DNA from: Dictyostelium discoideum
Lineage: Eukaryota
Assembly: GCA_000004695.1 (NCBI GenBank)
Contig: CM000155.2
Location: 800,001-864,000, forward strand
Direction: 5' to 3'
DNA: 64,000 nt
Part shown: positions 1 through 60,854 of the stretch, in pieces
Layout of the letters: every line of letters begins with the position of its first letter
Numbering within the stretch: the stretch's first letter is position 1
The notes under the pieces: model-generated
What the model was told of the DNA's origin: nothing
The model's input: the letters and a program-made list of their open reading frames with translations, nothing else
Databases searched by the model: none
Program-made: the position numbers and the translations under genes

Positions 1-3000
1 ATAATGGTACCTCTTATGATCCAGTTCAAGTGGTAAGTTCATTATGTTCCTTTGAATCCATTCAAATCGATAAACCTGATAAATTTGGTAGATCACCTTT
101 ATTCTATGCTTGTCAACATGGTAGTACCGTTTCTGCTCTCCTCTTAATTCAAAGAAAAGCTGATATTAATCGTGTTGATGAAGATGGTAATACACCTTTG
201 GCTATCACTCTCTTATTTAAACACCCAGATTGTGCTATCAATGTAATTCAAAAAGGTGCAAATGTTAAAGGTACTTTAACTAAATTCAATTATAAAATTA
301 CTAAAACTGAAACTCCATGGAAAACTGAAACAACAACAACAACAACAACTCCAAATGGTGCCACCACCACCACCACTACTACTACCACTACCACTACCAC
401 TGCTAGTACTTCAACAACAGCATCAGCAAATATACTTCCTCAAGTTGCAGCTCCATTAAATAGAGGTAGAATTAGTAGAGCTCAACATTCAAATGCTGCC
501 ATTCAAGAACCTAAAATTCCACATTATAAACAACCAATGAAAGTCGAATATAAAGTTGAAAAGATTAATGTTTGTAAGGTTGGTTTATTCTATCATGTTG
601 TATCAAATAATTGGCAAGGTGTTGCCTATATTATGTTGGACTCTGGTTTAGATAATTTCAGTGCACTTCATGATGCATTCAAAGCTGATAAATATCAATT
701 GGCTCTAACTTTATTATCAAAATGTCGTTCAGCTGCTGAATTATCACCATTATCACCAGAATCAAAACAAAACCTTTTCCATTTCATTGGTATGTACCCA
801 TCATCTGTTGCCAATTGGAGTGCTCGTGTTCAACAAAAATTATTATCATCTGGTGTTTCACCAAATCTCACTGATTCCACTGGTAGAACTCCACTTCACT
901 ATGCAGCTGTCTCTGAAAATGTTCCATTCACTCAATTCTTATTGACTCAAAAATTAAACATTAATCAACAAGATAAGGAAGGTAATACACCATTATCATT
1001 GGCATTGATAAAGATTAAAACTCCAACTCCAATAACTAGTGATACTCAACAACAACAAAGCACTGAAGATATTATCAAGAATTTCGTTTTACCAGCAGAG
1101 TTCAAATTATTATTAACCAATTTACCAAATTTAGAATTGAAATTCAAATATGAAGAGAATGAAATCACTCCATTAATTTATGCTATCAATATTAAAAACA
1201 TTGGTTTAATTGGTACTTTATTGAATTCAAAAGCAAACATCAATACAGTCGATGCACTTGGTCAACCACCACTTTTCCATGCAGTTAAAACAAATAAAAT
1301 GGATATTGTCAACTTGATACTCTCAAAGAAACCAAATATGAATATTCAAGATACCGATAAGAAATCTGTTATTCATTATGTAGTTAATCCAACTGAATAT
1401 GGTTCATTTGAAAATGTTACCCTTTTGAATCTATTGGCTAAACAAGGTTCTAAAATCGATTTAGCAGATATCGCTGGTAAAACACCATTATACTATGCAT
1501 CATTACAAGATTCTGGTAAGATGAAAGACGCTTTAATTAAATTGGGTGCAAAGAAGATTCCTCAAGAAACTTTACCAACTAGAGAAGTTTCAACCATTTC
1601 CAATTGGTCAGAGCTTAATACAGTCAATTATGAACAAGATTATAATAAATACATTGAAACCAAGAAAGAATTAATGGCTGCAAGCAATAAACAATTGAAA
1701 CCACTCGTTGATCCAATCTCAAGAATGCAAGAGAATTCTGAAGTATATGTCGATTCAAATGGTTTAATCTTTGACATTCTTATGACTAAAGTCGATGCTA
1801 AACGTGGTAATTGGGGTGAGAATAATTTCTACAAAATGCAAATCATTTACAATCCTGGCTTGGATAGATATTTCTTATGGAATCGTTGGGGTAGAATTGG
1901 TGATGTTGGTCAATATCAAAAGACACCATTCAGTAAGGATGAAGCAGTCACTGAATTTTGTAAAGTTTTCAAAACCAAGAGTGGCAATGCTTTCAATCTC
2001 GATTCAATGTCCAATTTCCAAAAGATTGAAGGGCGTTATCATTTGGTACACATCGATAGAACTGATAAGACAAAGAAAGAGATCCTCCACCCATTCGTTC
2101 TCTCTCAATATCCAAAATCACAATTACCAAAAGAACTCTATGATGTTATGGCTCAATTCTGTAATGTTGAATCAATCTCTCATCAATTGAAAAATCTTAA
2201 AATCGATACTGATATTATGCCATTGGGTCGTATTAGTAAAGATCTCATTCAAAAAGCCATTACAGTATTGGGTAAACTTAGTGAAGCAGTTGAACAAATT
2301 CGTTTGATCGAAGAGCACGAAGCCAATAAAAGAGCATCCTCTTTTACTAATGCTACAACTGTTGGTAGTGGTGTTAGTGGTAGTGGTGGTGATTCAACTT
2401 CTACCACTGATAAACCAGAGGAACCAAATTTCCCACCACTCAATGATGTCAAAGAATCCTTAATTAAACTTAGTAATGAATTCTATGAATTAATTCCTCA
2501 TTCAAACTTTTCCACCGAAAGAATGGTCATTTTGAAGAGTGCCAAAGAGATAACCGCCAAAACAACCCTCTTACAAAACTTGGATGAACTTGAGACCGTT
2601 TCAAAGATTTTGATTGCCGCTCACCAAAATACCACAATGCATCCATACGATTATTGTTTCAAAGCTCTTGGTGCCTCTTTGGAGAAATTGGATGCCAACT
2701 CTCCAGAATTTGGTATCCTTAAAAAGTACTCCGAGAATACCGGTTGCACAAAGAAGATTGTAAATATTTTCAAACTCCAAAGAAAAGGAGAGGTTGAAAG
2801 ATTCCAAGCTCATAAAAATCTCAAGAATCATTTCCTACTATGGCATGGTAGTTTAACAACAAACTATCTCTCCATTTTATCTCAAGGCTTAAAGATTGCT
2901 CCACCAGAGGCTCCAGTCACTGGTTATATGTTTGGTAAAGGTATTTATTTCTCTGATATGTTTAGAAAATCTATAAACTATTGCGGTAGTTGGGATAGTT

Positions 3001-3296
3001 CTTCAGCAAATAGTTTCCTCTTACTCTCAGAGGTAGCTTTGGGTACAATGAAAGAATTTAAAAGCGCTCACTATATGGAATCCCCTGAAACTGGTACAAA
3101 TAGTACTAAAGGTGTAGGTAAAACTGGTCCAAACTTTGACGATAGTATCATTTTAAATAATGGTGTTGCAATTCCTCTCTCTCCTCCAGAACAAGTTAAA
3201 GGTGATACTTCCGATTATCACTTGGAAATGAATGAATATATTGTTTATGACGTTTCTCAAATTAGAATGAGATATTTAGTTGAAGTTTCAAATTAA
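1..3296 (+). CDS. Poly(ADP-ribose) polymerase with N-terminal ankyrin repeats, WGR, PARP regulatory (helical) and catalytic domains. The 5' end is outside the window; the frame is open from base 1.
   Basis: The 1088-aa ORF is open to the window edge. It has ankyrin repeats (GRSPLFYACQHGSTVSALLLIQRKADIN; GRTPLHYAAVSENV; GKTPLYYAS). It has a WGR motif (WNRWGRIGDVGQ). The PARP H-Y-E catalytic triad context is present (LLWHGSLTTNYLSILSQGLKIAP ... GKGIYFSDMFRKS ... YHLEMNEYIVYD). Stop TAA at 3294-3296. Confidence 0.85.
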   Translation, partial: NGTSYDPVQVVSSLCSFESIQIDKPDKFGRSPLFYACQHGSTVSALLLIQRKADINRVDEDGNTPLAITLLFKHPDCAINVIQKGANVKGTLTKFNYKITKTETPWKTETTTTTTTPNGATTTTTTTTTTTTTASTSTTASANILPQVAAPLNRGRISRAQHSNAAIQEPKIPHYKQPMKVEYKVEKINVCKVGLFYHVVSNNWQGVAYIMLDSGLDNFSALHDAFKADKYQLALTLLSKCRSAAELSPLSPESKQNLFHFIGMYPSSVANWSARVQQKLLSSGVSPNLTDSTGRTPLHYAAVSENVPFTQFLLTQKLNINQQDKEGNTPLSLALIKIKTPTPITSDTQQQQSTEDIIKNFVLPAEFKLLLTNLPNLELKFKYEENEITPLIYAINIKNIGLIGTLLNSKANINTVDALGQPPLFHAVKTNKMDIVNLILSKKPNMNIQDTDKKSVIHYVVNPTEYGSFENVTLLNLLAKQGSKIDLADIAGKTPLYYASLQDSGKMKDALIKLGAKKIPQETLPTREVSTISNWSELNTVNYEQDYNKYIETKKELMAASNKQLKPLVDPISRMQENSEVYVDSNGLIFDILMTKVDAKRGNWGENNFYKMQIIYNPGLDRYFLWNRWGRIGDVGQYQKTPFSKDEAVTEFCKVFKTKSGNAFNLDSMSNFQKIEGRYHLVHIDRTDKTKKEILHPFVLSQYPKSQLPKELYDVMAQFCNVESISHQLKNLKIDTDIMPLGRISKDLIQKAITVLGKLSEAVEQIRLIEEHEANKRASSFTNATTVGSGVSGSGGDSTSTTDKPEEPNFPPLNDVKESLIKLSNEFYELIPHSNFSTERMVILKSAKEITAKTTLLQNLDELETVSKILIAAHQNTTMHPYDYCFKALGASLEKLDANSPEFGILKKYSENTGCTKKIVNIFKLQRKGEVERFQAHKNLKNHFLLWHGSLTTNYLSILSQGLKIAPPEAPVTGYMFGKGIYFSDMFRKSINYCGSWDSSSANSFLLLSEVALGTMKEFKSAHYMESPETGTNSTKGVGKTGPNFDDSIILNNGVAIPLSPPEQVKGDTSDYHLEMNEYIVYDVSQIRMRYLVEVSN

Positions 3297-4509
3297 AAAA
3301 ATAATTAAATAATTAAAAAATTTAAAAAAAAAAAAATAAAAAAAATAAAAAATAAAAAAAAAAAAAAGTAATAAATAATTTTAAAATAAAATAAAGATTT
3401 AAAGTTGATATAAACAAATTTTTTTCTTTATTACTTACAACATCATTTATTTTTTAAAAAAAAAAGAAATTAAAAATTAATCTTTTAATTAATTCCCACA
3501 CAAATTATTTATTATCAGTTAATATCTTATGATTAAATATCTTCAAATATTACTGTAACGGAAGTGGTATAATCAAGAAGATTATATTTTAATTTTTTAA
3601 TTATTTATTTAATTTAAATTAAAATAATATTTCTTTATTTATAATTAATTTATATTTTATTTTATTTATTTATATTTAATACTTATTTATTTTTTATTTA
3701 AGTTATTTATTTAATTTTTTAATTTAATTTAATTATAACATATTTATTTTGGGAGTAATAAGATTATAAAACCGATTAAATTATAATTTTCATTTTATAC
3801 TATATAAAATGACTTTATATTTATAAATGATTATAATAATAAAATGAAAAATACTAAATAATAATTATTGTAACTATTGGTTTCATTATATTGCCAAAAA
3901 TTTATTGAATAAGATAAAGTTATATCTATATTGGATAATAATAAAAAATATTTTAATTTTTTTTATTTTCCAATTTTAAAATTTTATTAAACAATAATAA
4001 ATTTCTAGACAAATTAAATGTATAATCCAATTTTAAAATTTTTTTATTTTATTATCAATTTAATTTAACTATAGTTATTTTTTTCATTTTTTTTTTTTAA
4101 TTTAAAATATTTAAAAACAACAATCATAATCTAAAAATAATTATTATTTATTTATCAAATCTAAATTAACCTTTTTTTTTTTTTATTTTTAATTTTTTTT
4201 TTTTATTTTTTTTTTTATTTTTTATTTTTTTTTTTGAAAAGTTTAATTTTATTTGTTTTATATTTGTTGTGTTATTTTAATTGTTTTTTTTTTTTCAATT
4301 GGTATTCTGATTTTTCCCATCCACATTTTATTTTTTTTTTAAAATTTTATTTTTTTTATTTTAATTTTTTATTTTTTTTTTCTTTTTTATTTTTTTTTTC
4401 ATTTCATTTTTTTCATTTCCTTCGAAAATATCTTTGCAATTAGGAGATAGATAATAATAAAATTATTTTATAAAAATTTTTTTTAAAAAAAAAAAAATAA
4501 AAAAAAAAC

Positions 4510-5745
4510 ATGGAAAATCAATTTAAAAATAATAATAATAGTAGTAGTATTGAAACATCAAATCAATTTTCAAATAAAAAAACAAATAGATTAGATAGTT
4601 TTGTATCAGTATCAGAATTACATGAAGAAGCTAAAAGATTATTACCAAAGATGGCATACGATTATTATGCATCAGGATCCAATGATCAAATTACATTAGC
4701 AGAGAATGAGAATGCATTCAGTCGTATTAAATTAGTACCAAGATCATTAGTTGATGTATCAAAAGTTAATACTAAAACTAGAATATTCGGAAGAGATATC
4801 TCAACACCCATACTAATTGCACCATGGGCAATGCAAAGAATGGCATCTCAAAGAGGTGAACTCGACACAGTTGAAGCTTCAAAAGAGTTCAATACAATCA
4901 TGACACTATCCTCATTATCCACTACATCAGTCGAAGATCTCTCAAGTGCAACAAATGGTAACCCAGGGTGGTTCCAATTATACGTTTTTAAAGATAGAAA
5001 AGTCTCTGAAGAATTAGTGAAAAGGGCTGAATCAATTGGTTATTCCGCTTTAGTGTTAACTGTTGATACACCATTTCTTGGTAAGAGAACTGCTGATTTT
5101 AAAAATTCGTAAGTATAATATTTTATAAACATTTAACAGTGTTTGTGGTGTTGGTTATTTACTATGTACTACTATTTTATAGATTTAAATTACCAAATGG
5201 ATTATCATTAAAAATATTTGAGAAATTAATGTTATCAAATTTAGATGGTGGATTAAATCAATATATTGCAACAATGATTGACCCATCATTGACATGGAAT
5301 GATTTGAAATGGTTGAAATCAATTACAAAGTTACCAATTTTAGTAAAAGGTATAATGTGTCCAAAGGATGCTGAATTGGCATTACAATATGGTGCTGATG
5401 GTATTATAGTATCGAATCATGGTGGTAGACAATTGGATACATGTCCTTCGACAATCGAAGTTTTACCATACATTAGTAAAGTTGTGAGAGGTAGAGTACC
5501 TTTGATTTTAGATGGCGGTATTCGTCGTGGTACTGATGTTTTAAAAGCATTGGCATTTGGTGCAAATGCAGTTTGTATTGGTAGACCTATCATTTGGGGT
5601 TTAAGTACTGGTGGTAAAGATGGAGTTTTAAAAGTTTTAAATTTATTAAATTCTGAATTACAATTAGCAATGGCTTTAACTGGTATTACTAATATTTCTG
5701 ATATTAATAATTCAATAATTTGGGATCAAAATAAATATATTAAAT

Positions 5746-5750
<5 letters not shown>
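4510..5750 (+). CDS. FMN-dependent (S)-2-hydroxy-acid oxidase / glycolate oxidase. Two exons: join(4510..5108,5183..5750).
   Basis: Exon 1 reads MAYDYYASGSNDQITLAENENAFSRIKLVPR ... VDTPFLGKRTADFKN. Donor GTAAGT at 5109, acceptor TTTTATAG ending 5182. Exon 2 reads FKLPNGLSLKIFEKL ... SNHGGRQLD ... LDGGIRRGTDVLKALAFGANAVCIGRP and is colinear with spinach glycolate oxidase. The MFVVLVIYY part of ORF 5139..5750 is intronic. Confidence 0.85.
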
Positions 5751-5782
<32 letters not shown>

Positions 5783-5832
5783 TAAAAAATTATAAATTAT
5801 AAATTTGTTTATTTTATTTATTTTATTTTGTT

Positions 5833-8064: not shown

Positions 8065-8329
8065 ATGAAAACTAGAATATTATTATTGTTTTTATTGCTT
8101 TCCATTTTATTAAATGTATCATTTTCTTTGGTAAATATTGAATTTAATTTTTTTTCTGAAAAAAAAAAAAAAAAAAAAAATATTCACAATTATTATATTT
8201 ATAAATTTAGGATGAAACCAAGAATATAGAAAATAATCTTGCTGCTGAATTAATACCAGATATTGTAAATTTTAATTAGATTTGATAAATTGGTTTTTAA
8301 ATAAAAAAAAAACTAATATCTAATAATTT

Positions 8330-8367
<38 letters not shown>

Positions 8368-10230
8368 TATTAGGGAGAAAAAAATAATAATAATAATTTA
8401 GAATTAGTAGGGTTAAATGAAAATGAAAAACAAAAAACTGAAAATGTTGAAGAAATTTCAAATGTTGTCAGAGAGAAACAAGTTGAAAATAAACCAGATG
8501 TTGAATATGAATTCCATCAAATTTCATTAGAAGATAATTTAAAGAAAATTATTAATGATATTGTCTCAATTTCCAATAGAAATAGAGAACAAGATATTAC
8601 AAGCTTATTAAACTATATATTTAATGTTAAACCAAAATCTGAAGATTTTAAAGAATATAATGGAAAACAAAGTAAATTCCAACAAATGGTAAACTACTTC
8701 CAATCATTCGATGAAATTATCAAGCAACATCAATTTGAAATTGACCAAGACCAAGTACGTCTTTTAGCTCATGATTTCACCAAAGCCTACTCTAGTGTAT
8801 TTGAATTGGATAATGATGAAAATCTTCAATTTGAAGACAACCTCACCAATTTCCTTTATTTATCAGTTCAAAAATTCTTATCAAGTTTTGGTCTCCCAGA
8901 ATATAAACCACATTTTGAAAGATCAAATCTACTTGAAAGAGATGTCCATAGATATGTCTCACACCCAGATGTCTCCTACTGGTCAAATGATAATGTTGAA
9001 AAGATTGCCAAGGCTTCTACCCTAACTGAAAACAATATTCAAGATATTTCAAAAGCAATCGTTCAATTATCAGAAGGTGAATCAAAATACTTTAAAAATG
9101 TAATGGAAATATTAGATATCCAAAACGCACCAAATCGTCAAAAAGTTGCCAATATCTCTTCAATTCTTAAAACCGCTTTACGTATTATGTATTCAATGAT
9201 TTCAAAACTCCAAACCAATGTTGATAATATTGATAATAATGAAAATATTGATAATACTGATAATATTAATAATGATAATGTAGTTGCAAAATATCCAACA
9301 TGGATTAATGAAGAATATATTAAAGATGTTGATAGTGTTTCTAAAGCTAGTGAATTGTTTAATCCAAGAACCATTGTCGCATTTAATAAATTATTTATTA
9401 GAAATAATGATCCAATTTCAAAATATGATCAAGAGTCATTAACTCATCAATTTGTTGATTTGGCTTATTCAATACTCTATGGTAGACAACAAAAATATGA
9501 AGAATTTGCTGAAAAAGGTAAAACAGCTTCAGATACAAACATTGATCCAATAATACTTAATCGTATCATTTCAATGGTTGATAACGTTCAAGAAGTTTCT
9601 CAACAAGAAAATAGTCAAGGTTACTTATTACGTGCTGCTCGTGCATTCTTTAATTTATTCCATATTCGTGAAAATTATGATGCATTAATGAATGCTTTTG
9701 AACAAGAACAAGAAGAACAAATAAATAACATTAATAATAATAATAATGAAAATACCCAACAACAAGAAGAACAACAAAATGATGAAAATAATCAACAAAC
9801 AAAACAACAAAAACAAGCATCATCAAATATTCAATATATTGCTCATAGAGTAAATAAAATAATTCAAGAGAATACAAATATTGATCAAGGTGATGAAACT
9901 AAAAGAAATGAAAATGTTTTTAGAATTCTTTACAACATTTATCTTCACTATTATGGTTTGGAAGATGAAAACCAATTAGAATCAAATAGAAAAGTTTCAA
10001 ATAAAAAAATTGAAAATGAAAATCCAGAAGTTTCATTCATTAGAGAAATCGTTCCATCCTTATCTGAAAATGATGTTGTTGATATTCTTGAAGAAATTGA
10101 TAGAGTAGCTGATCAATTAGGTTACAAAAGTACAAAAATTGATGATATTGATGAAAATGATGAACTAAATAATAATGCTGGGGAAACTAGAGATTTAGGT
10201 GATTTCCAATATCAAGAAAATGAAATTTAA
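8065..10230 (+). CDS. Acidic Asn/Gln/Glu-rich hypothetical protein with a predicted N-terminal signal peptide. Three-exon model: join(8065..8130,8211..8264,8374..10230).
   Basis: The main ORF 8686..10230 is open upstream to a TAG at 8371-8373 with no in-frame ATG, implying a 5' exon. Exon 1 MKTRILLLFLLLSILLNVSFSL (signal-peptide-like) ends at donor GTAAAT (8131). Exon 2 DETKNIENNLAAELIPDI sits between acceptor TTTAG (8209-8210) and donor GTAAAT (8265). Exon 3 follows the T22 tract and acceptor TTATTAG at 8372-8373. All junctions are phase 0. No recognisable domain. Confidence 0.5.
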
Positions 10231-10430
10231 TCAATCATCTCTTCTAAAATAAAAAAATAAAACAAAATAAAATAAAATTTATAAAATATATATAAATATA
10301 TGAATGGACTGGTTATTTATAGATTTTTTTTTTTTTTTTTTATAAATTATTTTTTTTATTTTTTTTTTTTATTTGTTTTTTTTTATTTGTTTTTTTTTTA
10401 TTTTTTTTATTTTAAAATTAAATTAATTGG

Positions 10431-11244
10431 TTAATTGGCTTTTGAAGTGTTTTCATTTACTGAAACATTTTCATTACTTGAAGTTAAACTATTTGAACCA
10501 CTATTATTTAAATTATCAGATTTTGATGTTGAATTTGGTAAAGATTGTTGTTGTTGTTGTTGTTGTTGGGTTTGATTTGTATTTACATTATTACCACTAT
10601 TAGCTAAAAGGTTTAAATTATTACTTGAACTATTCGAATTTGATTTATAGAAAGGGGTGGTGGTTGCGGTGGCGGTGGTTGAATTGGTTGAACCTGCTAA
10701 AGATGATAAAGAAGTTGAAGAAGAGGATGGAGTGATGGTTGGAGTTGTGTTATGGGAAGAGAAAGTGCTGTGAGATTGGTAACGAATATTTAATTTATTT
10801 AAATCTGCACCTTGACAACCTTGAGCGATTGTATTCATAATGTTGATTTTCAATTGTTCTATATTCTTTTCGTTTGAACAATCTTTATTCCAAATTGCTA
10901 TTCTCTCTGCTTGATCACGTTTACTTAAAACAACACCACAAATATCTCTATCGATATCGATGGTTTCACCAACGACACCCAATACAATATCCTCCCAAAT
11001 TAAATCGACATTAAATATGAATCTAGTACTCTTTTGAAAATTAATTACCCATTTTCCACCTTTAATATTCTCTGGATCTTCCCATGTTGGACTAATTCCA
11101 CTCTTAAATAAATGATAGGTTGTATCTGCTTGCATTTTTGATGGTCTTTGTAATTGATGATAATATCCCCAAAAATCTTCAACCTAAAAAAAAAAAAAAA
11201 AAAATTCATTTTATTTTTAATTATTATTATTATTATTATTATTA

Positions 11245-11317
<73 letters not shown>

Positions 11318-11761
11318 AAAAAAAAAAAAAAAAAAATTGTTAATACCAAATTTTTATTATAATAAAATTTTTTGGACAATCGGTAGTTGATCTTTGATCC
11401 AGATATTTTTTTTTTTTTTTTTTTTTTTTTCAATTTTTCTGAATTTTTTTCAAATTTTTCAAATTTTTTTATTTTTATACACATGATCGTTTTTTTTTTT
11501 TTTTTTATAATAAAATGTTAAAGCCAAAAAAAAATTTTCAGCGATAATATTTTATTTTGAATTAATACATACTGATGAGAATGAACCTATATTTGTTAAA
11601 GTTGATAAATAATCTTGATGTGATGTTGCTGTATTTGATTGATATTGTTTTTTATCTGTGAAAAGTGTCCATGTTGCATCTAATTGATGAACAGGAGGAG
11701 TTTGATTACTCTTTGCTTGAATTTCCATTTGATCGGTATATGATAATCCTTGTTGATTCAT
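10431..11761 (-). CDS. eIF4E: Translation initiation factor eIF4E (cap-binding) with a ~100-aa S/T/N/Q-rich C-terminal tail. Two exons: complement(join(10431..11183,11573..11761)).
   Basis: Exon 1 reads HQLDATWTLFTDKK ... LSTLTNIGSFSS then donor GTATGT. Exon 2 reads VEDFWGYYHQLQRPSKMQADTTYHLFKSGISPTWEDPENIKGGKWV ... DICGVVLSKRDQAERIAIWNKD, colinear with human eIF4E (VEDFWALYNHIQ ... FKDGIEPMWED ... GGRW). The 389-nt intron carries an (ATT)n tract. Confidence 0.85.
11221..11318. repeat. (ATT)n microsatellite (~32 units) inside the eIF4E intron
   Basis: Direct reading of the tattattatt... run, flanked by poly(A). Confidence 0.9.
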
Positions 11762-12337: not shown

Positions 12338-15402
<3,065 letters not shown>

Positions 15403-15671: not shown

Positions 15672-19063
<3,392 letters not shown>

Positions 19064-27280: not shown

Positions 27281-29158
27281 TTAATTAATTAAAAATTTTT
27301 CATCATCATCATTATTATCATTATCATCAACATCAAATAATAATGGTACTTTTTGTTTTGCTTTAATTGAATCACTACTACAATTGATATATTTAATTTT
27401 GGCAATTTCAGTTGGTATCATAAATATTGAGACTATTAAGATGAATATTGAGAAAGAGAATGCAAATGCAAAGATTGGTAATTGGTCACCTTTCTTGTCG
27501 GAATATAGTGCGCTACAGAATAGTGGACCGACAACACGACCTAATGAACCTGCTGATGTGATGATACTAATTAGTAGACCTTGAGATGCGTTACCGATTG
27601 TATTTGATAAAACTTTGGAAAAAATTGAGACGATTACAGTTTGAGAAATTGGGAAACCAATACCATAGACGAATAGATAACTTAGCATATATCTAGTCCA
27701 TGTTAAATGATGTGCCATTGAAATGAAACAACCAATTGCAACACAAACATTACCAAAATTGTAAATCCAATAATCGTGAATGATTTCTTTTTTACTTGCC
27801 CAACTAATTAACAATAGGAAAAAGATACCAACGAATCCAAGTCCACCGAAAAAGTATCCACTTCCACTATCGATATTCATTCCATTGCTATCACTTGAAC
27901 CTGAACCTGAATTTGAAAATGAGTCGGAGGAAAGGTCAGTTACTGCTGAATTGGAATTCAAACTATCATATAATGGTGTACCCAATGTTTCATAAATACC
28001 AAGCACAGCTCTAATAAAGAAATTTAATAAAACGAATATTATTAAACTAATTAATGCCCGTTTATCTTTTAATATAATTTTATAAATATTTTCTTTTTTT
28101 TCTTTTTCTTTTTCTTTTTCTTCATTTAATGTCGACGATGCATCACAAATTGAACCACTATTACTAATACCAAAATTCATTTCCATAATTGTATTTTCAT
28201 CACCATTTGTAATTTCTTCAGCAACTCCAGTATTTCCTGAATTGTCATCTTCAAAATTATTTATTGCTTTAATTGAATTACTACTTGCTGATAGGTAGTA
28301 TTGTTCTTCAATATCTCTTGTCATGGATACTAAATTATTGGTACTATTATTATTTGCACCACCTTTATTTTCAAAACCATTATTTTTTCTAACTGTAGTT
28401 GGTTGGGTGGATTTTGGATTTTTAAAGAAATAAAGAATAGTTAAAAGTAATAGGAAATTTTGGAAACCTAAAAACCAACCTGGTGATGTTAAATAATCAA
28501 TATCAACTGTACCAATTTTAAAAGCAGGGAGAAATGAAAGGAATGATCCAACAATTGGTGATACTGCATAACCCAAGAATTGGACTGCTGCAGAGAGAGA
28601 AATTAATGCTGTACGCTCTGCAACCTCTGTAACATCAGTAATAAATGATCTACCAACACTTAGTGTACCTGCACCAAATCCTAATACTGCTCTTGATGCA
28701 ACCACTGATATCTCACCGAATTTGGCACTTCCATGATCCAAATATGCAAATGAATACCAAAATGAACCAATAATACAAAATATAATTGAAACTGAAAATA
28801 TCTTTTTATAATAACTATTTGATGATATAAATCCTAATCCAATGGTTGCAACTAATCTACCAAAACTAAAACTTGAAATTACCAAACCCAATAATGATGC
28901 ATCTCCAACTCCACCAATTAAATTTGAATATGCAGGTGCACTTGGTACAATAATTCCTCTAGCAAACTCTTGAAAAAAAAAAATTGCAAAAACAATTCCA
29001 ATTGATACTTTTCTATCTCTTTTATTTAAACCACCAATCTTTTTTTCTTCAATAATATTACCACCACCACTACCAGGGACACCACCATTTTTTTTAAAAT
29101 CAAATAAATCTTGTTTTTCAAAATTTAATTCAATTCCACTTTTAATATTTTCGCTCAT
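27281..29158 (-). CDS. Major facilitator superfamily (MFS) transporter, about 12 TM segments, with a large Ser/Asn-rich central loop.
   Basis: 625-aa ORF. Hydrophobic segments read IGIVFAIFFFQEFARGIIVPSAP, GRLVATIGLGFISS, AVLGFGAGTLSVGRS. Second 6-TM half follows after the loop. Confidence 0.75.
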   Translation of the reverse strand: MSENIKSGIELNFEKQDLFDFKKNGGVPGSGGGNIIEEKKIGGLNKRDRKVSIGIVFAIFFFQEFARGIIVPSAPAYSNLIGGVGDASLLGLVISSFSFGRLVATIGLGFISSNSYYKKIFSVSIIFCIIGSFWYSFAYLDHGSAKFGEISVVASRAVLGFGAGTLSVGRSFITDVTEVAERTALISLSAAVQFLGYAVSPIVGSFLSFLPAFKIGTVDIDYLTSPGWFLGFQNFLLLLTILYFFKNPKSTQPTTVRKNNGFENKGGANNNSTNNLVSMTRDIEEQYYLSASSNSIKAINNFEDDNSGNTGVAEEITNGDENTIMEMNFGISNSGSICDASSTLNEEKEKEKEKKENIYKIILKDKRALISLIIFVLLNFFIRAVLGIYETLGTPLYDSLNSNSAVTDLSSDSFSNSGSGSSDSNGMNIDSGSGYFFGGLGFVGIFFLLLISWASKKEIIHDYWIYNFGNVCVAIGCFISMAHHLTWTRYMLSYLFVYGIGFPISQTVIVSIFSKVLSNTIGNASQGLLISIITSAGSLGRVVGPLFCSALYSDKKGDQLPIFAFAFSFSIFILIVSIFMIPTEIAKIKYINCSSDSIKAKQKVPLLFDVDDNDNNDDDEKFLIN

Positions 29159-50605: not shown

Positions 50606-51622
50606 ATGACAACTACAACTACAACTACAACAAATACAAATACAACAAATTTAGATCCATTATTGCCATGGGTTGAAAAATATAGACCAATATTAATTAA
50701 AGATATAGTTGGTAATGAAGAAACAGTTAGTAGATTAGAGAGTATATCAAAGGATGGTAATTTACCAAATATTATAATTAGTGGACCACCAGGTACAGGT
50801 AAAACATCGAGTATATTATGTTTAGCAAGGGCATTGTTGGGGGCAAATTATAAAGAGGCAGTATATGAATTGAATGCATCCGATGATAGAACATTGGATG
50901 TTGTTAGAGATAAGATTAAATCATTTGCAATGAAAAAGGTGACATTGCCAGCTGGGAGACATAAAATCATTATATTGGACGAGGTGGATAGTATGACAAG
51001 CGGAGCGCAACAAGCGTTAAGAAGAATTATGGAGATATACAGTGGTACAACCCGTTTTGCATTCGCTTGTAACCAATCCACCAAAATCATTGAACCTATT
51101 CAATCAAGATGTGCTGTGCTTCGTTTCACACGTTTATCAGACTCACAAATTTTAACACGTCTTAGAGAAGTTGTACAAATTGAAAAAGTACCATATACCG
51201 ACGACGGTTTGGCTGCTATCATTTTCACAGCAGAGGGTGATATGCGTCAAGCTTTAAATAACTTACAAGCAACTCATTCTGGTTTTGGTTTAATCAATGC
51301 TGAAAATGTTACAAAAGTATGTGACCAACCACATCCACTCATCATTAAACAAATCATTGCATTATGTGCTAAATCCGATTTCAAAGAAGCTTATCCATTT
51401 TTAAAAAAACTTTGGGATGATGGTTATTCCTCAATCGATATCATCTCTGCCCTCTTTAGTATTACAAAATCTTCAAATAATATACCGGAATATCAAAAAT
51501 TAGAATTCTTAAAAGAAATTGGTTTTTGTAATTTACGTGCTACAACTGGTGTAAATACTTTAGTTCAATTAACTGGTTTACTTTCAAAACTTTGTTTAGT
51601 TTCAATTAAAATGAAAAATTAA
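50606..51622 (+). CDS. rfc2: Replication factor C small subunit (RFC2-type clamp-loader AAA+ ATPase)
   Basis: Reads PWVEKYRP ... [10 protein letters not shown] ... [28 protein letters not shown] ... [56 protein letters not shown]. Near-identical block order to human RFC2 (PWVEKYRP ... [25 protein letters not shown] ... [37 protein letters not shown] ... [14 protein letters not shown]). Confidence 0.9.
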
Positions 51623-55403: not shown

Positions 55404-56874
55404 TCATTATTTTATTTTATTTTATTTAATTTTTTTTTTTCTTCGGAAATAGAAACAAAAAAAAGCAAGAAAAACAACCAAAAAAGTTGACGATATTGAT
55501 GATTTAATTGGATTTGATGATTTATCAAAAAGTGACCAAAAGAATATAAAGAGTAAAGTTGAAGAACAACATGAGTTTTTCCTCTCAAAGAATTCTAAAT
55601 CAAAACCAAAATCGAAATCTAAAAAAGATACACCAGTTAGCAAACCAAAAACATCATCATGGGTCGTAAATGAAAATGGTGATATAACAAATAGTGACGA
55701 TGAAGAAGATACACAATTTATATTAAAGGATAAAAAGAAATCAAATAATAATAATAAAAACAATAACAATAATAAAAATAATAAATTTGATGATGATGAT
55801 TTATTTAATAATAATAATAATAATGATAATGACCAAGATGATGAAATTATGAAACCAATTAAAAAACCAACAAGTACTACAACTACAACTACAACCACTA
55901 AAAAAACAAATAATAATAATAATAATAATAATAATAATTCAACTTTAGTAAAGAGTAAACCATTAAAATCAATATTAATACCAAATTGGTTAACAAGTTT
56001 AGAGAAAATTATTAAAGATGAACAACAACAATTATATGATGAAATTATTGGAGATAAAAGAAATTCAAAATGTTTACCATCAGAGAGTAATCAAATTTTC
56101 ACAAGTTTAAATTCAGTTGGGTCACCAAAGAATTGTAATGTTGTGATTGTTGGTAGTTCACCAGATACCAAGAGAACGACATCAAGTGGTTTTTCATATT
56201 GTGATAATAGTTCAGAGAGATGGAAATTACAATCGATTAAAACATCTCATAGAAATTTAATTAGATTAGCATTATTGGATTTAGGGTATATTACTAAAGA
56301 GGAAACCATCGATTCAATTCAAGAGGTGTTGAGAGAGATTGATCTTCCATCTGACTCACCAAAAGATTGGTTCAAATCAACTTCAAAACAAGGTGTGCTT
56401 TGGTTAAATTCAGTCTCTTTGACATCGATTGAGGGTGATGATGATTATCAGAGTGATAACTTCAAAAAACATGAAAAATATTGGAAACCAGTCATAGAGG
56501 AAATCATTAGATCTATCTTTAATTCAAAGATTGAGGATGATTCACCATCTGGTGTTGTCTTTGTGTTACTTGGTAAACAAAGTACTCATTTCAAACAAAC
56601 CGTTCAATTAATTCATTCAGAATATATGGGTGCTATTCCAATTGAATTCATTGAAGCTGCTTCACCAGTTTTAGAAACTTTCCTTAGTTCAAATTGTTTT
56701 AAAAAAATTAATAATTCTTTAGAGAAATTATCATTATCTCCAATTGATTGGTGGAAACCAAAAGAAGATGATGATGAAGAAGAAGATGAAGAGGAAGAAG
56801 AAGAGGTAGATGAGGAACAAGAAAAACAACAACAACAAAATGTAGAAATAAAAAATAAACAAAAAAATCAAAAC

Positions 56875-56908
<34 letters not shown>

Positions 56909-56994
56909 GTGATGATAATGATGAAAAAGTTGAAGAGAAATTAAAAAGTGATAACAATCGTACTATTAAATTACCACCAGGTGAGCAATTTATA

Positions 56995-57037
<43 letters not shown>

Positions 57038-57960
57038 GTGGTGGTGGTGGTGATGATGATGATGAATCACCACCAAATGATAAAGATATTCGAAATAGTG
57101 ATGATAATAATAATAATAATAATAATAATGATGATGGAAATGTTCCACCACAATGTAATTTAATTCAAGAGAATGGAACAAAGATTCAATTGAAATTAGG
57201 TCAAGAATTTACATTGGGTAGAACGATTTTAGATATTAGGGATAAATTAGTTAGTAGAAATCAAGCAATCGTAACAATGTTAAAAGATATTTCAACTGGT
57301 TCATATTTTGTTGAATTGATACCAAAGGGTCAAAATCCTGTTCATTTAGTATTGGGTGATAATGATTTCCAACCATTATCTCAAGAATCAAAATATAAAC
57401 TTTTCAATGGTGAAACCTTTTTATTATGTTCTCAAAAATATCCATTCACTATTGAAATATCAGGTGGTAGTAAAAAAGTTAATAATACTAATAATAAACA
57501 ACCAGCAATTTCATTCTCACCAAAGAGTAAAACAACTTCAAATTTATCATCACCATCACAATCATCACAATCATCATCAAATAGTTCAAATAAAAGACCA
57601 TTAAATGATGATGATTTTGAAGGTGAAGGTAATAAAAATCATTCTTCACCTGCTAAAAAAAAGATTGCAACAACACCAAGTAAAAATAATTCAGAGAAAC
57701 CAAAACCAAAACCAAAACCAAAGCAAAAGAAAAAGGATGATTTTATCGACGAAGATGATTATCAAGAAGAGGATGAAGATTCTGATGATGATTATGTACC
57801 TTCTCAAAATGATGATGACGATGATGATGAATATGGTTCAGATTTTAAACCATTTATTAAATCAAGAAGTCAAGATAAACCAAAATGTAAATATGGTTCA
57901 TCTTGTTACAGAACTAATCCTGATCATTTAAGAGAGTTTAGTCATCCAAATAAAAAATAA
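55161..57960 (+). CDS. Composite DNA-damage-response protein: N-terminal PARP-type zinc finger, divergent UDG-superfamily-like module, FHA-like domain, C-terminal PBZ (PAR-binding) zinc finger. Two exons: join(55161..55340,55453..57960), ~895 aa.
   Basis: Exon 1 YRIEYASTGRSSCKQAKCKKQIEKGAVRIGAIFPSERFETDGVGTDWFHPNCFFE is a zf-PARP (PARP1/Lig3 nick-sensor finger). Donor GTATTT, acceptor AAATAG, phase 0. Exon 2 continues KVDDIDDLIGFDDLSKSDQKNIKSKVEE (PARP1 finger-1 tail: EVDGFSELRWDDQQKVKK). Mid-region reads NVVIVGSSPD ... GVLWLNSVSLT ... VVFVLLGKQSTHF, a UDG-fold-like motif arrangement. FHA-like block reads LGQEFTLGRTILDIRDKLVSRNQAIV ... GQNPVHL ... NGETFLL. C-terminus KPKCKYGSSCYRTNPDHLREFSHP fits the PBZ consensus C-x-[FY]-G-x2-C-x-R-x-NP-x-H-x4-H. 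Confidence 0.75.
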
Positions 57961-59157: not shown

Positions 59158-59228
59158 GCGTATGTGGTCTAGTGGTATGATGCATCCCTGCCACGGATGC
59201 GAACTGGGTTCGATTCCCAGCATACGCA
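59158..59228 (+). tRNA. tRNA-Gly (anticodon GCC)
   Basis: Acceptor stem is 7 bp (GCGTATG/CATACGC) plus discriminator A. A-box is TGGTCTAGTGG. Anticodon stem CATCC/GGATG with loop CTGCCAC. T-arm CTGGG-TTCGATT-CCCAG contains the B-box GGTTCGATTCC. CCA is not encoded. Confidence 0.9.
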
Positions 59229-59261: not shown

Positions 59262-59272
59262 GGTTCGATTCT
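59262..59272 (+). promoter_or_regulatory. Extragenic B box (ex-B, GGTTCGATTCT) about 34 nt downstream of the tRNA
   Basis: Near-exact copy of the internal B-box consensus downstream of the gene. Ex-B boxes are a known feature of Dictyostelium tRNA genes and lie in the TRE3 target zone. Confidence 0.5.
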
Positions 59273-59520
59273 TACAGACATGAAAAAACAAAGAAATCCT
59301 CATCTAATTAGCAAAAATTATAAAGGAATTCCAATTGGATTTAATCTTAATTTAAACCGTACCGCTATCAAGAGGATACAAGATACACGTGAAAAGTAAT
59401 TCATCCTTTTCTATCCTTAATCTCGGTCAATTTTAACCAATCTTTCGAAAAAAATCACCAATCCACCACGATCTACAGATCTAACTTACCAAATCACCGA
59501 TTCAAAGGAATCCCATCGAG

Positions 59521-60854
59521 ATGAATTCCTACGCAGACGCGGCTAAAATGGCCAACCCCTCCACCCATATGGACGAGGCATCGGAGAACTTCATTAAGGA
59601 ATTCTCCACAAAAACAGCAGAGATAAAGGAAACTTACCCCAAACTATCAATAGGCCTCAAAGACATCTCCAAATACTGCGAGACCATATTGAACATGACT
59701 GCGCTCTCAACCTACGAGAAGAACAACGGATTCTACCCAATTACACTCGAATTCCCCAAAATGGATCTCAAGGGGTTAGAAGAAATGAGAAAAACACTCT
59801 CAAACTACGATATCCCAATCGACAAGATATACATAGGCAAAGGAACTAGAAAAATGATCCACCTGATGATTAAAAAAGAACAATCTCTCCTAAATATCAT
59901 TAGAGATAGAAGCAAATTGGGAACCTTCATCACCTCCAGTAGAGACTTCCACGTTCTCACAGGAAGAGTAAGAATTCCCAGAGAAAAGGCAGGAATAGTG
60001 GACGCCCTCATCAAAACTGCCTTTGCAGAAGAAATACCCTATGCAATATACAATACTATATACTCCACCGACCACCTCATAGTATTCGGTCTAATAGAAT
60101 GCAAAATAGGCGATCAAATGAAATCTGGCCAACACATTACAGAAATCGCAAACTTTACCATCAGAACGGCCACCAAAACCTACTCCTCACAAAAGAAAAA
60201 CAAGAAAGTAGAGACAAACAACACGGAGGAACCATTACCATCAGAACGGCCACCAAAACCTACTCCTCACAAAAGAAAAATAAGAAAGTAGAGTCAAACA
60301 ACACGGAAGAACCATTAGAAGATGAGATGACAGATGATCCTCCCAACATCCAAAACAGGATAGCAATCAAATCCTCTCAACCAAAACCACAACAACAAAC
60401 AAACAACCCAGCAAACAATAAGTCTGATAAACAATCAACCCAAGAGAAAAAAGCCCAATCAAAAAAGTCCTCTCAACCTCTTCCCCCCAAAAACCAAGCA
60501 GAATCTCAATCTGTCAAACCCACCACAACCACTACCACAACATCCAACGCCATCCAAAAAGACAATGCCAACAAAACGAGCACTAACATCCATTCATCCT
60601 CGGAAAACAGAGAGAAGACACCAAACATCCCTCCATCACATAAACGCAAGAACGAGGAAATCCACTCAAACAACGAGGTCACCCAACTCTCACCAACAAT
60701 AAACAGAAGCAACCCTTACATCCCATCCACCCCTAAGACACCTGTCAAAAAAGAAAGGAAAGGAATCATTGAGAGCTTCATAGAGAGTATCTACCCTTCA
60801 CCATCCAAACCGCAGCTATACGACTCCCAAGAGGAGATCGATATCATCTCATAA
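59521..60854 (+). CDS. TRE3-like ORF1 (nucleic-acid-binding/Gag-like protein), frameshifted by an 80-bp tandem duplication (60158..60237 = 60238..60317)
   Basis: ORF 59521..60291 and ORF 60099..60854 overlap in different frames and share the duplicated peptide TIRTATKTYSSQKKNKKVE(T/S)NNTEEPL. Removing one 80-bp copy restores a single about 418-aa ORF. Confidence 0.7.

What the first reader, a model, noticed from the sequence alone, without database searches (positions are those of the whole stretch)
1..3296. Ankyrin-repeat PARP that retains WGR and the PARP regulatory domain (not a tankyrase architecture)
The catalytic H-Y-E domain (HGS ... GKGIYFSD ... YHLEMNEYIVYD) is preceded by a WGR motif (WNRWGRIGDVGQ) and a helical regulatory domain, as in DNA-dependent PARP1/2/3. 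The N-terminus has at least 8 ankyrin repeats and a Thr-rich linker, as in tankyrases. Tankyrases lack WGR and PRD and use SAM. This is therefore a hybrid layout: a likely DNA-activated PARP with an ankyrin protein-interaction platform. The 5' end is cut by the window, so more N-terminal domains may exist.
Basis: partly seen in the sequence, partly recalled or inferred. Interest (0 to 1): 0.5.

Follow-up and report, generated by a model that had tools for sequence, protein, structure and literature searches.

The report
Known Dictyostelium ankyrin PARP, adprt3

Summary
Bases 3-3293 (+) form one open frame of 1097 codons, cut at the window's 5' edge. Pfam finds ankyrin repeats, WGR, PARP regulatory domain and PARP catalytic domain in that order, and no SAM domain. 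The H-Y-E triad is intact.

The catalytic domain scores 191 bits against human PARP1 and 18.7 bits against tankyrase-2. An AlphaFold model superposes on DNA-bound PARP1 WGR-HD-CAT.

The window is D. discoideum AX4 chromosome 6. The catalytic sequence is identical to UniProt Q54E42 (adprt3, DDB_G0291788, 2536 aa) as printed in a 2010 paper's supplement. The window holds residues 1440-2536.

This layout has been described by Otto 2005 (Dd.pARTb), Citarelli 2010 (Clade 1A, explicitly "not tankyrase") and Perina 2014 (ADPRT3).

The fusion is not a read-through artefact. D. purpureum carries it in one continuous 1850-codon ORF, and Acytostelium and a chytrid fungus encode it as single proteins.

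- The window part has about 11 ankyrin repeats, not 8.
- The Thr run is not a tankyrase-like linker. It is a species-specific low-complexity tip of a conserved beta-ribbon between two ankyrin repeats.

DNA-dependent activation is inferred and untested. Verdict: correct but already known, so low interest.

The parts
1..3296 (+). 3' portion of adprt3 (Q54E42 / DDB_G0291788). It codes residues 1440-2536 in frame 3 (nt 3-3293), with the TAA stop at 3294-3296. There is no intron in this part.
   Evidence: The ORF is open to the window edge. It matches the published Q54E42 residues 2320-2525 exactly, and the length arithmetic gives 2536. It is colinear with the D. purpureum and Acytostelium orthologues from window residue 1.
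3..272 (+). Ankyrin repeats: a half repeat cut by the window edge, plus repeats 1-2 (residues 1-90).
   Evidence: Helix pairs H32-38/H42-50 and H65-71/H75-83, with pLDDT above 90. Consensus hits at residues 26-56 and 59-88.
273..584 (+). Long two-stranded beta-ribbon (residues 91-105 and 179-194) with a disordered tip. The tip contains the Thr runs (residues 110-116 and 121-133, nt 330-401).
   Evidence: Strands E91-105 and E179-194 have pLDDT 84-95, while the tip has pLDDT 32-55. The flanks are conserved in Acytostelium and D. purpureum, but the Thr run is absent there.
585..1118 (+). Ankyrin repeats 3-7 (residues 195-372). Repeats 3-5 are degenerate in sequence. Repeat 7 carries a small Gln-rich insert.
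   Evidence: Helix pairs. The best Pfam Ank stretches are at residues 278-335. Consensus hits at 291-321 and 324-334.
1152..1556 (+). Ankyrin repeats 8-11 (residues 384-518).
   Evidence: Helix pairs H390-408, H423-440, H456-480 and H495-513. Consensus hits.
1704..2042 (+). WGR domain (residues 568-680), with W629-G630-R631 at nt 1887-1895.
   Evidence: Pfam WGR E 3.6e-17. It aligns to the human PARP1 WGR from residue 568. The beta-sheet plus helix fold appears in the model. W/G/R are conserved in 42/47/42 of 47 aligned sequences.
2118..2669 (+). PARP regulatory (helical, HD) domain, residues 706-889. It carries a disordered low-complexity insert at residues 785-812 (nt 2355-2438).
   Evidence: Pfam PARP_reg E 1.8e-29 over the full profile 1-135. 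The segment is all-helical in the model, and the insert has pLDDT below 50.
2670..3293 (+). ADP-ribosyl transferase catalytic domain (residues 890-1097). The triad is H948 (nt 2844-2846), Y982 (2946-2948) and E1078 (3234-3236).
   Evidence: Pfam PARP E 1.1e-59. PDB scores: PARP1 191 bits, PARP2 171, PARP3 103, PARP4 47, tankyrase-2 18.7. Triad columns are conserved.

Best explanation
The region is the C-terminal 43% of the D. discoideum AX4 chromosome 6 gene adprt3 (UniProt Q54E42, DDB_G0291788, 2536 aa). It is the amoebozoan member of the ankyrin-bearing branch of the PARP1 clade, called 'Clade 1A' or 'Clade 1-ank'.

Shown here:
- One polypeptide carries a long ankyrin solenoid, followed by WGR, an autoinhibitory-type helical domain and an ART domain.
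- The ART domain has an intact H-Y-E triad.
- The predicted WGR-HD-ART arrangement superposes on DNA-bound human PARP1 and PARP2.

Inferred from established knowledge of PARP1, PARP2 and PARP3:
- The enzyme makes ADP-ribose chains or oligomers from NAD+.
- The helical domain keeps it off until the WGR domain engages a nucleic-acid break or another allosteric ligand.
- The ankyrin arm recruits partners or substrates, or tethers the enzyme.

The Thr run is a D. discoideum-specific homopolymer expansion in a surface loop. It is not a functional linker.
For: Identity:
- Window ORFs are exact matches to DDB_G0291816, DDB_G0291824, DDB_G0291828 and RFC2 of D. discoideum AX4, on a 3.6 Mb contig.
- The 206 catalytic-domain residues printed for Q54E42 (GN=adprt3, 'bases 2320,2536') in the Citarelli 2010 supplement equal window residues 881-1086. 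The implied length is 2536.

Domains and fold.

Clade placement:
- PARP1 scores well above tankyrase.
- A neighbour-joining tree groups the protein with ANK-bearing homologues and apart from the PARP1, PARP2, plant and trypanosome PARPs.
- The published phylogeny places Q54E42 in Clade 1A.

The fusion is conserved.

The protein is expressed. Its peptides appear in two proteomic data sets.

The C. elegans analogue PME-5, with the same layout, is chromatin-associated and DNA-damage responsive.
Against: - No biochemical or genetic study of Adprt3 was found. The Dictyostelium DNA-repair literature covers only Adprt1a, Adprt1b and Adprt2.
- DNA-dependent activation is therefore untested.
- PARP1 K600 falls in a gap of the alignment (its role as a DNA-contact residue is recalled from memory, not checked). 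The position of PARP1 Y986 is Met here.
- Peptides near vault particles and possible O-fucosylation hint at non-chromatin roles.
- The D. discoideum protein itself was not returned by the protein database searches. Identity rests on the published partial sequence, the length arithmetic and the neighbouring genes.
Confidence: 0.95

Rival explanations
1. It works like a tankyrase. The ankyrin arm captures peptide-motif substrates, and the enzyme acts on them constitutively, independent of DNA. WGR and HD would then be retained only as structural or regulatory relics.
For: The ankyrin array is very long: about 11 repeats in the window and about 1439 further residues upstream. In the Acytostelium and D. 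purpureum orthologues the upstream part is ANK only. Perina 2014 notes that nematodes have either the ANK-type Clade 1 PARP or a true tankyrase, which suggests overlapping roles. Proximity labelling detected Q54E42 peptides near cytoplasmic vaults.
Against: There is no SAM domain. The catalytic domain scores 18.7 bits against tankyrase-2 and 191 bits against PARP1. WGR and HD are conserved across Amoebozoa, fungi and other lineages, which argues for selection on them. Citarelli 2010 concludes that ankyrin repeats were acquired independently. The vault hit did not pass that paper's own filter.
Confidence: 0.2
2. The ankyrin part and the PARP part are separate genes, joined only by an accidental read-through ORF.
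For: The D. purpureum annotation lists two gene models at the orthologous locus: a 224-aa ANK protein and a 449-aa WGR-PRD-PARP protein.
Against: The same D. purpureum DNA has one uninterrupted ORF of 1850 codons covering both models. It is 65-69% identical to the window protein across the junction. Acytostelium, a chytrid and other eukaryotes encode the fusion as single proteins. The window has no AT-rich intergenic-type segment between ANK and WGR. The curated Q54E42 length of 2536 aa includes both parts.
Confidence: 0.01
3. The gene is a decaying or catalytically dead paralogue.
For: It has low-complexity inserts in an ANK loop and in the helical domain. It carries Met at the PARP1 Y986 position.
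Against: The 1097-codon frame is intact in DNA of about 33% GC. H, Y, E, the second Tyr and the Lys-Ser pair are all conserved. It is 65% identical to the D. purpureum orthologue with conservative changes. Peptides have been detected. Low-complexity inserts are usual in D. discoideum proteins (established knowledge).
Confidence: 0.02

Closest known systems
D. discoideum Adprt3 (Q54E42, DDB_G0291788; 'Dd.pARTb' of Otto 2005; Clade 1A of Citarelli 2010; 'Clade 1-ank' of Perina 2014)
   Same: It is this gene. The catalytic sequence is identical, the length arithmetic is exact and the chromosome 6 neighbours match.
   Different: Nothing differs. The window lacks only the first 1439 residues.
C. 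elegans PME-5 (TNKS-1/TANK-1)
   Same: The order ANK - WGR - PRD - PARP is the same. The catalytic domain is closer to PARP1 than to tankyrase, and the original PME-5 paper found it closest to this Dictyostelium protein.
   Different: PME-5 did not fall cleanly into any clade in the 2010 phylogeny. It was not compared directly here.
Human PARP1, PARP2 and PARP3 (DNA-dependent Clade 1 PARPs)
   Same: The WGR-HD-ART module is shared. The protein is 32-36% identical to PARP1 in this module, with Foldseek TM 0.76 to DNA-bound PARP1 over about 540 columns. The H-Y-E triad is present.
   Different: There are no zinc fingers, BRCT or PADR1 domains in the window part, and an ankyrin solenoid stands in their place. 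The helical domain has a 28-residue disordered insert. The protein ends right after the last strand, so it lacks a PARP1-like C-terminal tail.
Human tankyrase 1 and 2 (Clade 4)
   Same: An N-terminal ankyrin array precedes a C-terminal H-Y-E PARP domain.
   Different: There is no SAM domain. WGR and HD are present. The catalytic domain scores only 18.7 bits against tankyrase-2. Ankyrin repeats were acquired independently according to Citarelli 2010.
Mucoromycota and chytrid ANK-PARP1 proteins (2026 preprint; Quaeritorhiza P0008)
   Same: These are giant proteins with several ankyrin arrays upstream of WGR-PARP.
   Different: Some fungal members add chromo or Cys-rich domains. They are 29-36% identical to the window protein.

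Membership tests
PARP1 clade (Clade 1: WGR-PRD-CAT PARPs) | A WGR domain lies upstream of the catalytic region | tested here: met
   Pfam PF05406 E 3.6e-17, 62.7 bits against a cut-off of 22. W629-G630-R631 are conserved.
PARP1 clade (Clade 1: WGR-PRD-CAT PARPs) | A PARP regulatory (helical) domain directly precedes the ART fold | tested here: met
   PF02877 covers the full profile 1-135, E 1.8e-29. The segment 710-889 is all-helical in the model.
PARP1 clade (Clade 1: WGR-PRD-CAT PARPs) | H-Y-E catalytic triad, with a catalytic domain closest to PARP1 and PARP2 | tested here: met
   H948, Y982 and E1078. PARP1 191 bits, PARP2 171, PARP3 103, PARP4 47, TNKS2 18.7.
PARP1 clade (Clade 1: WGR-PRD-CAT PARPs) | Catalytic activation by DNA breaks | not testable with these tools
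   This needs enzyme assays. The only support is fold similarity to DNA-bound PARP1 and PARP2.
Clade 1A / 'Clade 1-ank' PARPs | Ankyrin repeats lie N-terminal to WGR-PRD-CAT in one polypeptide | tested here: met
   A single ORF in the window. The same holds in the D. purpureum ORF and in the Acytostelium and chytrid proteins.
Clade 1A / 'Clade 1-ank' PARPs | The WGR-CAT region groups phylogenetically with other ANK-bearing PARPs, apart from the PARP1 and PARP2 types | tested here: met
   A neighbour-joining tree on 478 columns, without bootstrap. The published ML tree places Q54E42 in Clade 1A.
Tankyrases (Clade 4) | A SAM domain lies between the ankyrin repeats and the catalytic domain | tested here: not met
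   No SAM family in the Pfam scan at E<=1.
Tankyrases (Clade 4) | WGR and PRD are absent, and the catalytic domain is of tankyrase type | tested here: not met
   WGR and PRD are present. Tankyrase-2 scores 18.7 bits, E 0.01, over 82 residues only.
Tankyrases (Clade 4) | Five-repeat ankyrin clusters (ARCs) with an RxxPDG-peptide pocket | not tested
   No tankyrase ARC sequence or structure was compared. The best PDB matches of the ANK part are designed repeat proteins and ankyrin-1.
D. discoideum adprt3 (the gene itself) | Sequence identity and genomic position | tested here: met
   Exact match of the 206 published residues and an implied length of 2536. Neighbouring genes are exact matches to AX4 chromosome 6 proteins.

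The most novel reading that the evidence does not exclude
Adprt3 may not be a DNA-break sensor. Its giant ankyrin solenoid would dock it to a cytoplasmic or nuclear-pore-associated assembly, such as vaults or O-fucosylated proteins. The WGR-HD switch would then be triggered by RNA or a protein ligand. The conserved beta-ribbon, with its modifiable Ser/Thr-rich tip, would act as a regulatory handle.
Probability: 0.1. Interest if true: 0.45.

Novelty: already known. Interest (0 to 1): 0.1.

Why it matters
As a discovery it matters little. The gene, its domain order and the argument that it is not a tankyrase were published in 2005, 2010 and 2014.

Its remaining value is as a reminder that Adprt3 is functionally uncharacterised, in an organism where Adprt1a, Adprt1b and Adprt2 are well studied. 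A knockout and a DNA-stimulation assay would show whether ankyrin-type Clade 1 PARPs are true DNA-damage enzymes.

The D. purpureum annotation of the orthologue should be merged into one gene.

Tried and rejected
1. Both protein database searches failed to return the D. discoideum protein. The best hits were Acytostelium at 50% identity and a truncated D. purpureum model at 66%. I first considered an unsequenced dictyostelid as the source. Exact look-ups of neighbouring ORFs and the sequence printed in the Citarelli supplement then showed that it is AX4 adprt3.

2. Exact look-up failed for 6 of 10 window ORFs, probably because those genes have introns.

3. A crude consensus-ankyrin phmmer search found only 7 repeats. 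I replaced it with a count of helix pairs in the AlphaFold model.

4. I considered linking the Thr run to O-fucosylation. However, Q54E42 was enriched only with the anti-fucose-O-Ser antibody and not with the anti-fucose-O-Thr antibody, so the link is weak. The relevant tract may lie upstream of the window.

5. The GTAAGT at nt 33-38 was checked as a possible splice donor. It lies inside the conserved peptide VQVVSSL shared with both orthologues, so it is coding.

6. No bootstrap or ML tree was made, and no Dictyostelium paralogues or tankyrases were in the tree. The published phylogeny covers these.
Full report
**What is in the sequence.**
Frame 3 of the + strand is open from the first complete codon (base 3) to a TAA at 3294-3296, giving 1097 codons without a stop. 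GC content is 25-43% throughout the frame and falls to 3-16% immediately after the stop. No intergenic-type AT-rich segment lies inside the frame.

A Pfam scan gives the following domains:
- ankyrin families (Ank_2 E 7e-35; 4-5 multi-repeat stretches);
- WGR at residues 591-665 (E 3.6e-17);
- PARP_reg at 706-886 over the full profile (E 1.8e-29);
- PARP catalytic at 902-1096 (E 1.1e-59);
- no SAM domain, even at E<=1.

The catalytic triad is H948, Y982 and E1078. The second Tyr (Y993), the Lys-Ser pair and W629-G630-R631 are conserved across an alignment of 47 relatives.

**Which kind of PARP it is.**
The catalytic domain was searched against all PDB sequences:

| PDB target | Score (bits) |
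|---|---|
| PARP1 | 191 |
| PARP2 | 171 |
| PARP3 | 103 |
| PARP4 | 47 |
| Tankyrase-2 | 18.7 (E 0.01, 82 residues only) |

The whole WGR-HD-CAT stretch aligns to human PARP1 in two blocks, separated by a low-complexity insert in the helical domain.

An AlphaFold2 model of the 1097 residues has mean pLDDT 84 and pTM 0.65. Its best Foldseek matches in the PDB are human PARP1 WGR-HD-CAT bound to a DNA double-strand break (7s6m, 4dqy; TM 0.76 on the target, about 540 columns). Next come PARP2 on DNA or nucleosomes.

A rough neighbour-joining tree of the WGR-CAT region places the window protein with D. purpureum and Acytostelium, inside the set of ankyrin-bearing homologues. Vertebrate PARP1, plant PARP2, trypanosome and BRCT-type PARPs form a separate cluster.

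**Anatomy of the ankyrin part.**
The model shows a half repeat at the window edge and then 11 complete helix-pair repeats up to residue 518.

The Thr-rich tract (residues 110-116 and 121-133, nt 330-401) is not an inter-domain linker. It is the disordered tip (pLDDT 32-55) of a confidently predicted two-stranded beta-ribbon (residues 91-105 and 179-194) that projects between repeats 2 and 3.

The ribbon flanks are conserved in Acytostelium and D. purpureum. The Thr run is missing from both, and the loop is about 50 residues shorter in D. purpureum. It is therefore a D. discoideum-specific homopolymer expansion, and the analogy to tankyrases on this point fails.

**Identity.**
Four other ORFs of the window are exact matches to D. 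discoideum AX4 proteins on a 3,602,379-bp contig:
- DDB_G0291816 / Q54E40;
- DDB_G0291824;
- DDB_G0291828;
- replication factor C subunit 2 / Q54E21.

The supplement of Citarelli et al. 2010 prints the catalytic domain of 'Q54E42, Poly(ADP-ribosyl)transferase, GN=adprt3, bases 2320,2536'. Those 206 residues are identical to window residues 881-1086. The offset of 1439 plus 1097 gives exactly 2536. The dictyBase id DDB_G0291788 is given. The window therefore holds residues 1440-2536 of Adprt3.

**Is the fusion real?**
At the orthologous D. purpureum locus, the public annotation has two gene models: a 224-aa ANK protein and a 449-aa WGR-PRD-PARP protein.

The DNA nevertheless contains one uninterrupted ORF of 1850 codons (L001 5888-11440). 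This ORF carries 12 Ank_2 stretches, WGR, PARP_reg and PARP, and is 65-69% identical to the window protein across the junction.

Acytostelium (1748 aa), the chytrid Quaeritorhiza (1808 aa) and other eukaryotic proteins have the same order in one protein. This rules out the read-through alternative.

**What is already known.**
- Otto et al. 2005 noted that one of the ten D. discoideum pARTs (Dd.pARTb) combines ankyrin repeats with the regulatory and WGR domains instead of SAM, like C. elegans pARTc.
- Citarelli et al. 2010 defined Clade 1A as the ankyrin + WGR + PRD + catalytic PARPs of Amoebozoa, fungi and ciliates. They placed Q54E42 there and stated that these proteins are not tankyrases and that ankyrin repeats were acquired at least twice.
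- Perina et al. [quoted passage not shown]
- A 2026 preprint extends the type to Mucoromycota.

**How it most likely works.**
Shown here: the domain order, the intact NAD+-site residues and a PARP1-like three-domain fold.

Inferred from the PARP1, PARP2 and PARP3 paradigm (established knowledge):
- The helical domain blocks productive NAD+ binding until the WGR domain engages a DNA break.
- The enzyme then modifies itself and nearby proteins.
- The ankyrin solenoid supplies partner or substrate binding in place of the zinc fingers and BRCT domain of PARP1.

Indirect support comes from PME-5, the nematode protein with the same layout. It is chromatin-associated and DNA-damage responsive as summarised.

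Several points count against certainty:
- No functional study of Adprt3 was found. The Dictyostelium repair work concerns Adprt1a, Adprt1b and Adprt2.
- Q54E42 peptides were seen near vault particles, though below that paper's filter.
- Q54E42 was 5.2-fold enriched in an anti-fucose-O-Ser pull-down.
- The position of PARP1 Y986 is Met here.

I give the tankyrase-like, DNA-independent mode of action about 0.2.

**Verdict.**
The novelty rating is 'already known', and interest is low.

Noticed in passing
L001 5888-11440 (D. purpureum GL870987.1, reversed): The D. purpureum orthologue is annotated as two genes: a 224-aa ANK protein at 8129-9550 and a 449-aa PARP at 10001-11440. One uninterrupted 1850-codon ORF spans both, so the public gene models look wrongly split. 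A further 524-codon ORF with no Pfam match lies just upstream (4227-5801) and may be another exon.
   Followed up: yes
window 273-584 (Thr runs at 330-401): The Thr homopolymer sits at the tip of a predicted long beta-ribbon inserted between two ankyrin repeats. The ribbon flanks are conserved in two other dictyostelids and the Thr run is not. Q54E42 is listed as an O-fucose candidate protein, but only with the anti-fucose-O-Ser antibody.
   Followed up: partly
window 59158-59228, 59264-59273 and about 59300-63700: A tRNA-Gly(GCC) gene is followed about 35 bp later by a second copy of its B-box-like GGTTCGATTC. An A-rich + strand element follows, with GC 36-40% and strong skew. It has overlapping ORFs at 59521-60291, 60099-60854 and 60854-63700, and the last carries a reverse transcriptase domain (E 4.6e-34). 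This fits a tRNA-gene-targeted non-LTR retrotransposon of the TRE3 type, an assignment made from memory and not tested.
   Followed up: partly
window 55849-57960 (+): A 703-codon ORF ends in a PBZ (poly-ADP-ribose-binding zinc finger) domain (PF10283, E 3.9e-13). It probably continues past an intron. This is one of the few PBZ proteins of D. discoideum and lies 52 kb from adprt3. The proximity is probably coincidental.
   Followed up: no
window 4510-5112 and 5139-5750 (+): Two adjacent ORFs lie just downstream of adprt3. The first matches the N-terminal half of an FMN-dependent dehydrogenase (E 3.7e-56). This is probably one gene interrupted by a short intron.
   Followed up: no
window 3228-3230 (M1076) and 3291-3296: The position equivalent to PARP1 Y986 is Met, seen in only 3 of 36 aligned relatives, most of which have Tyr or His. 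The protein also ends directly after the last beta-strand, without a PARP1-like C-terminal tail. From memory, that tail and Y986 matter for HPF1 binding and for chain elongation or branching in PARP1. This was not checked.
   Followed up: no
window 13105-15402 (+), 15672-17075 (-), 27281-29158 (-), 50606-51622 (+): The gene context is ordinary housekeeping: a HAT-repeat + RRM protein, a CAS/CSE1 exportin fragment, an MFS transporter (DDB_G0291824) and replication factor C subunit 2. There is no sign of functional clustering with adprt3.
   Followed up: partly
(database behaviour): The D. discoideum Adprt3 protein itself was not returned by either homology search, although neighbouring AX4 proteins are in the collection. 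Either it is absent from the collection or it was withheld.
   Followed up: no
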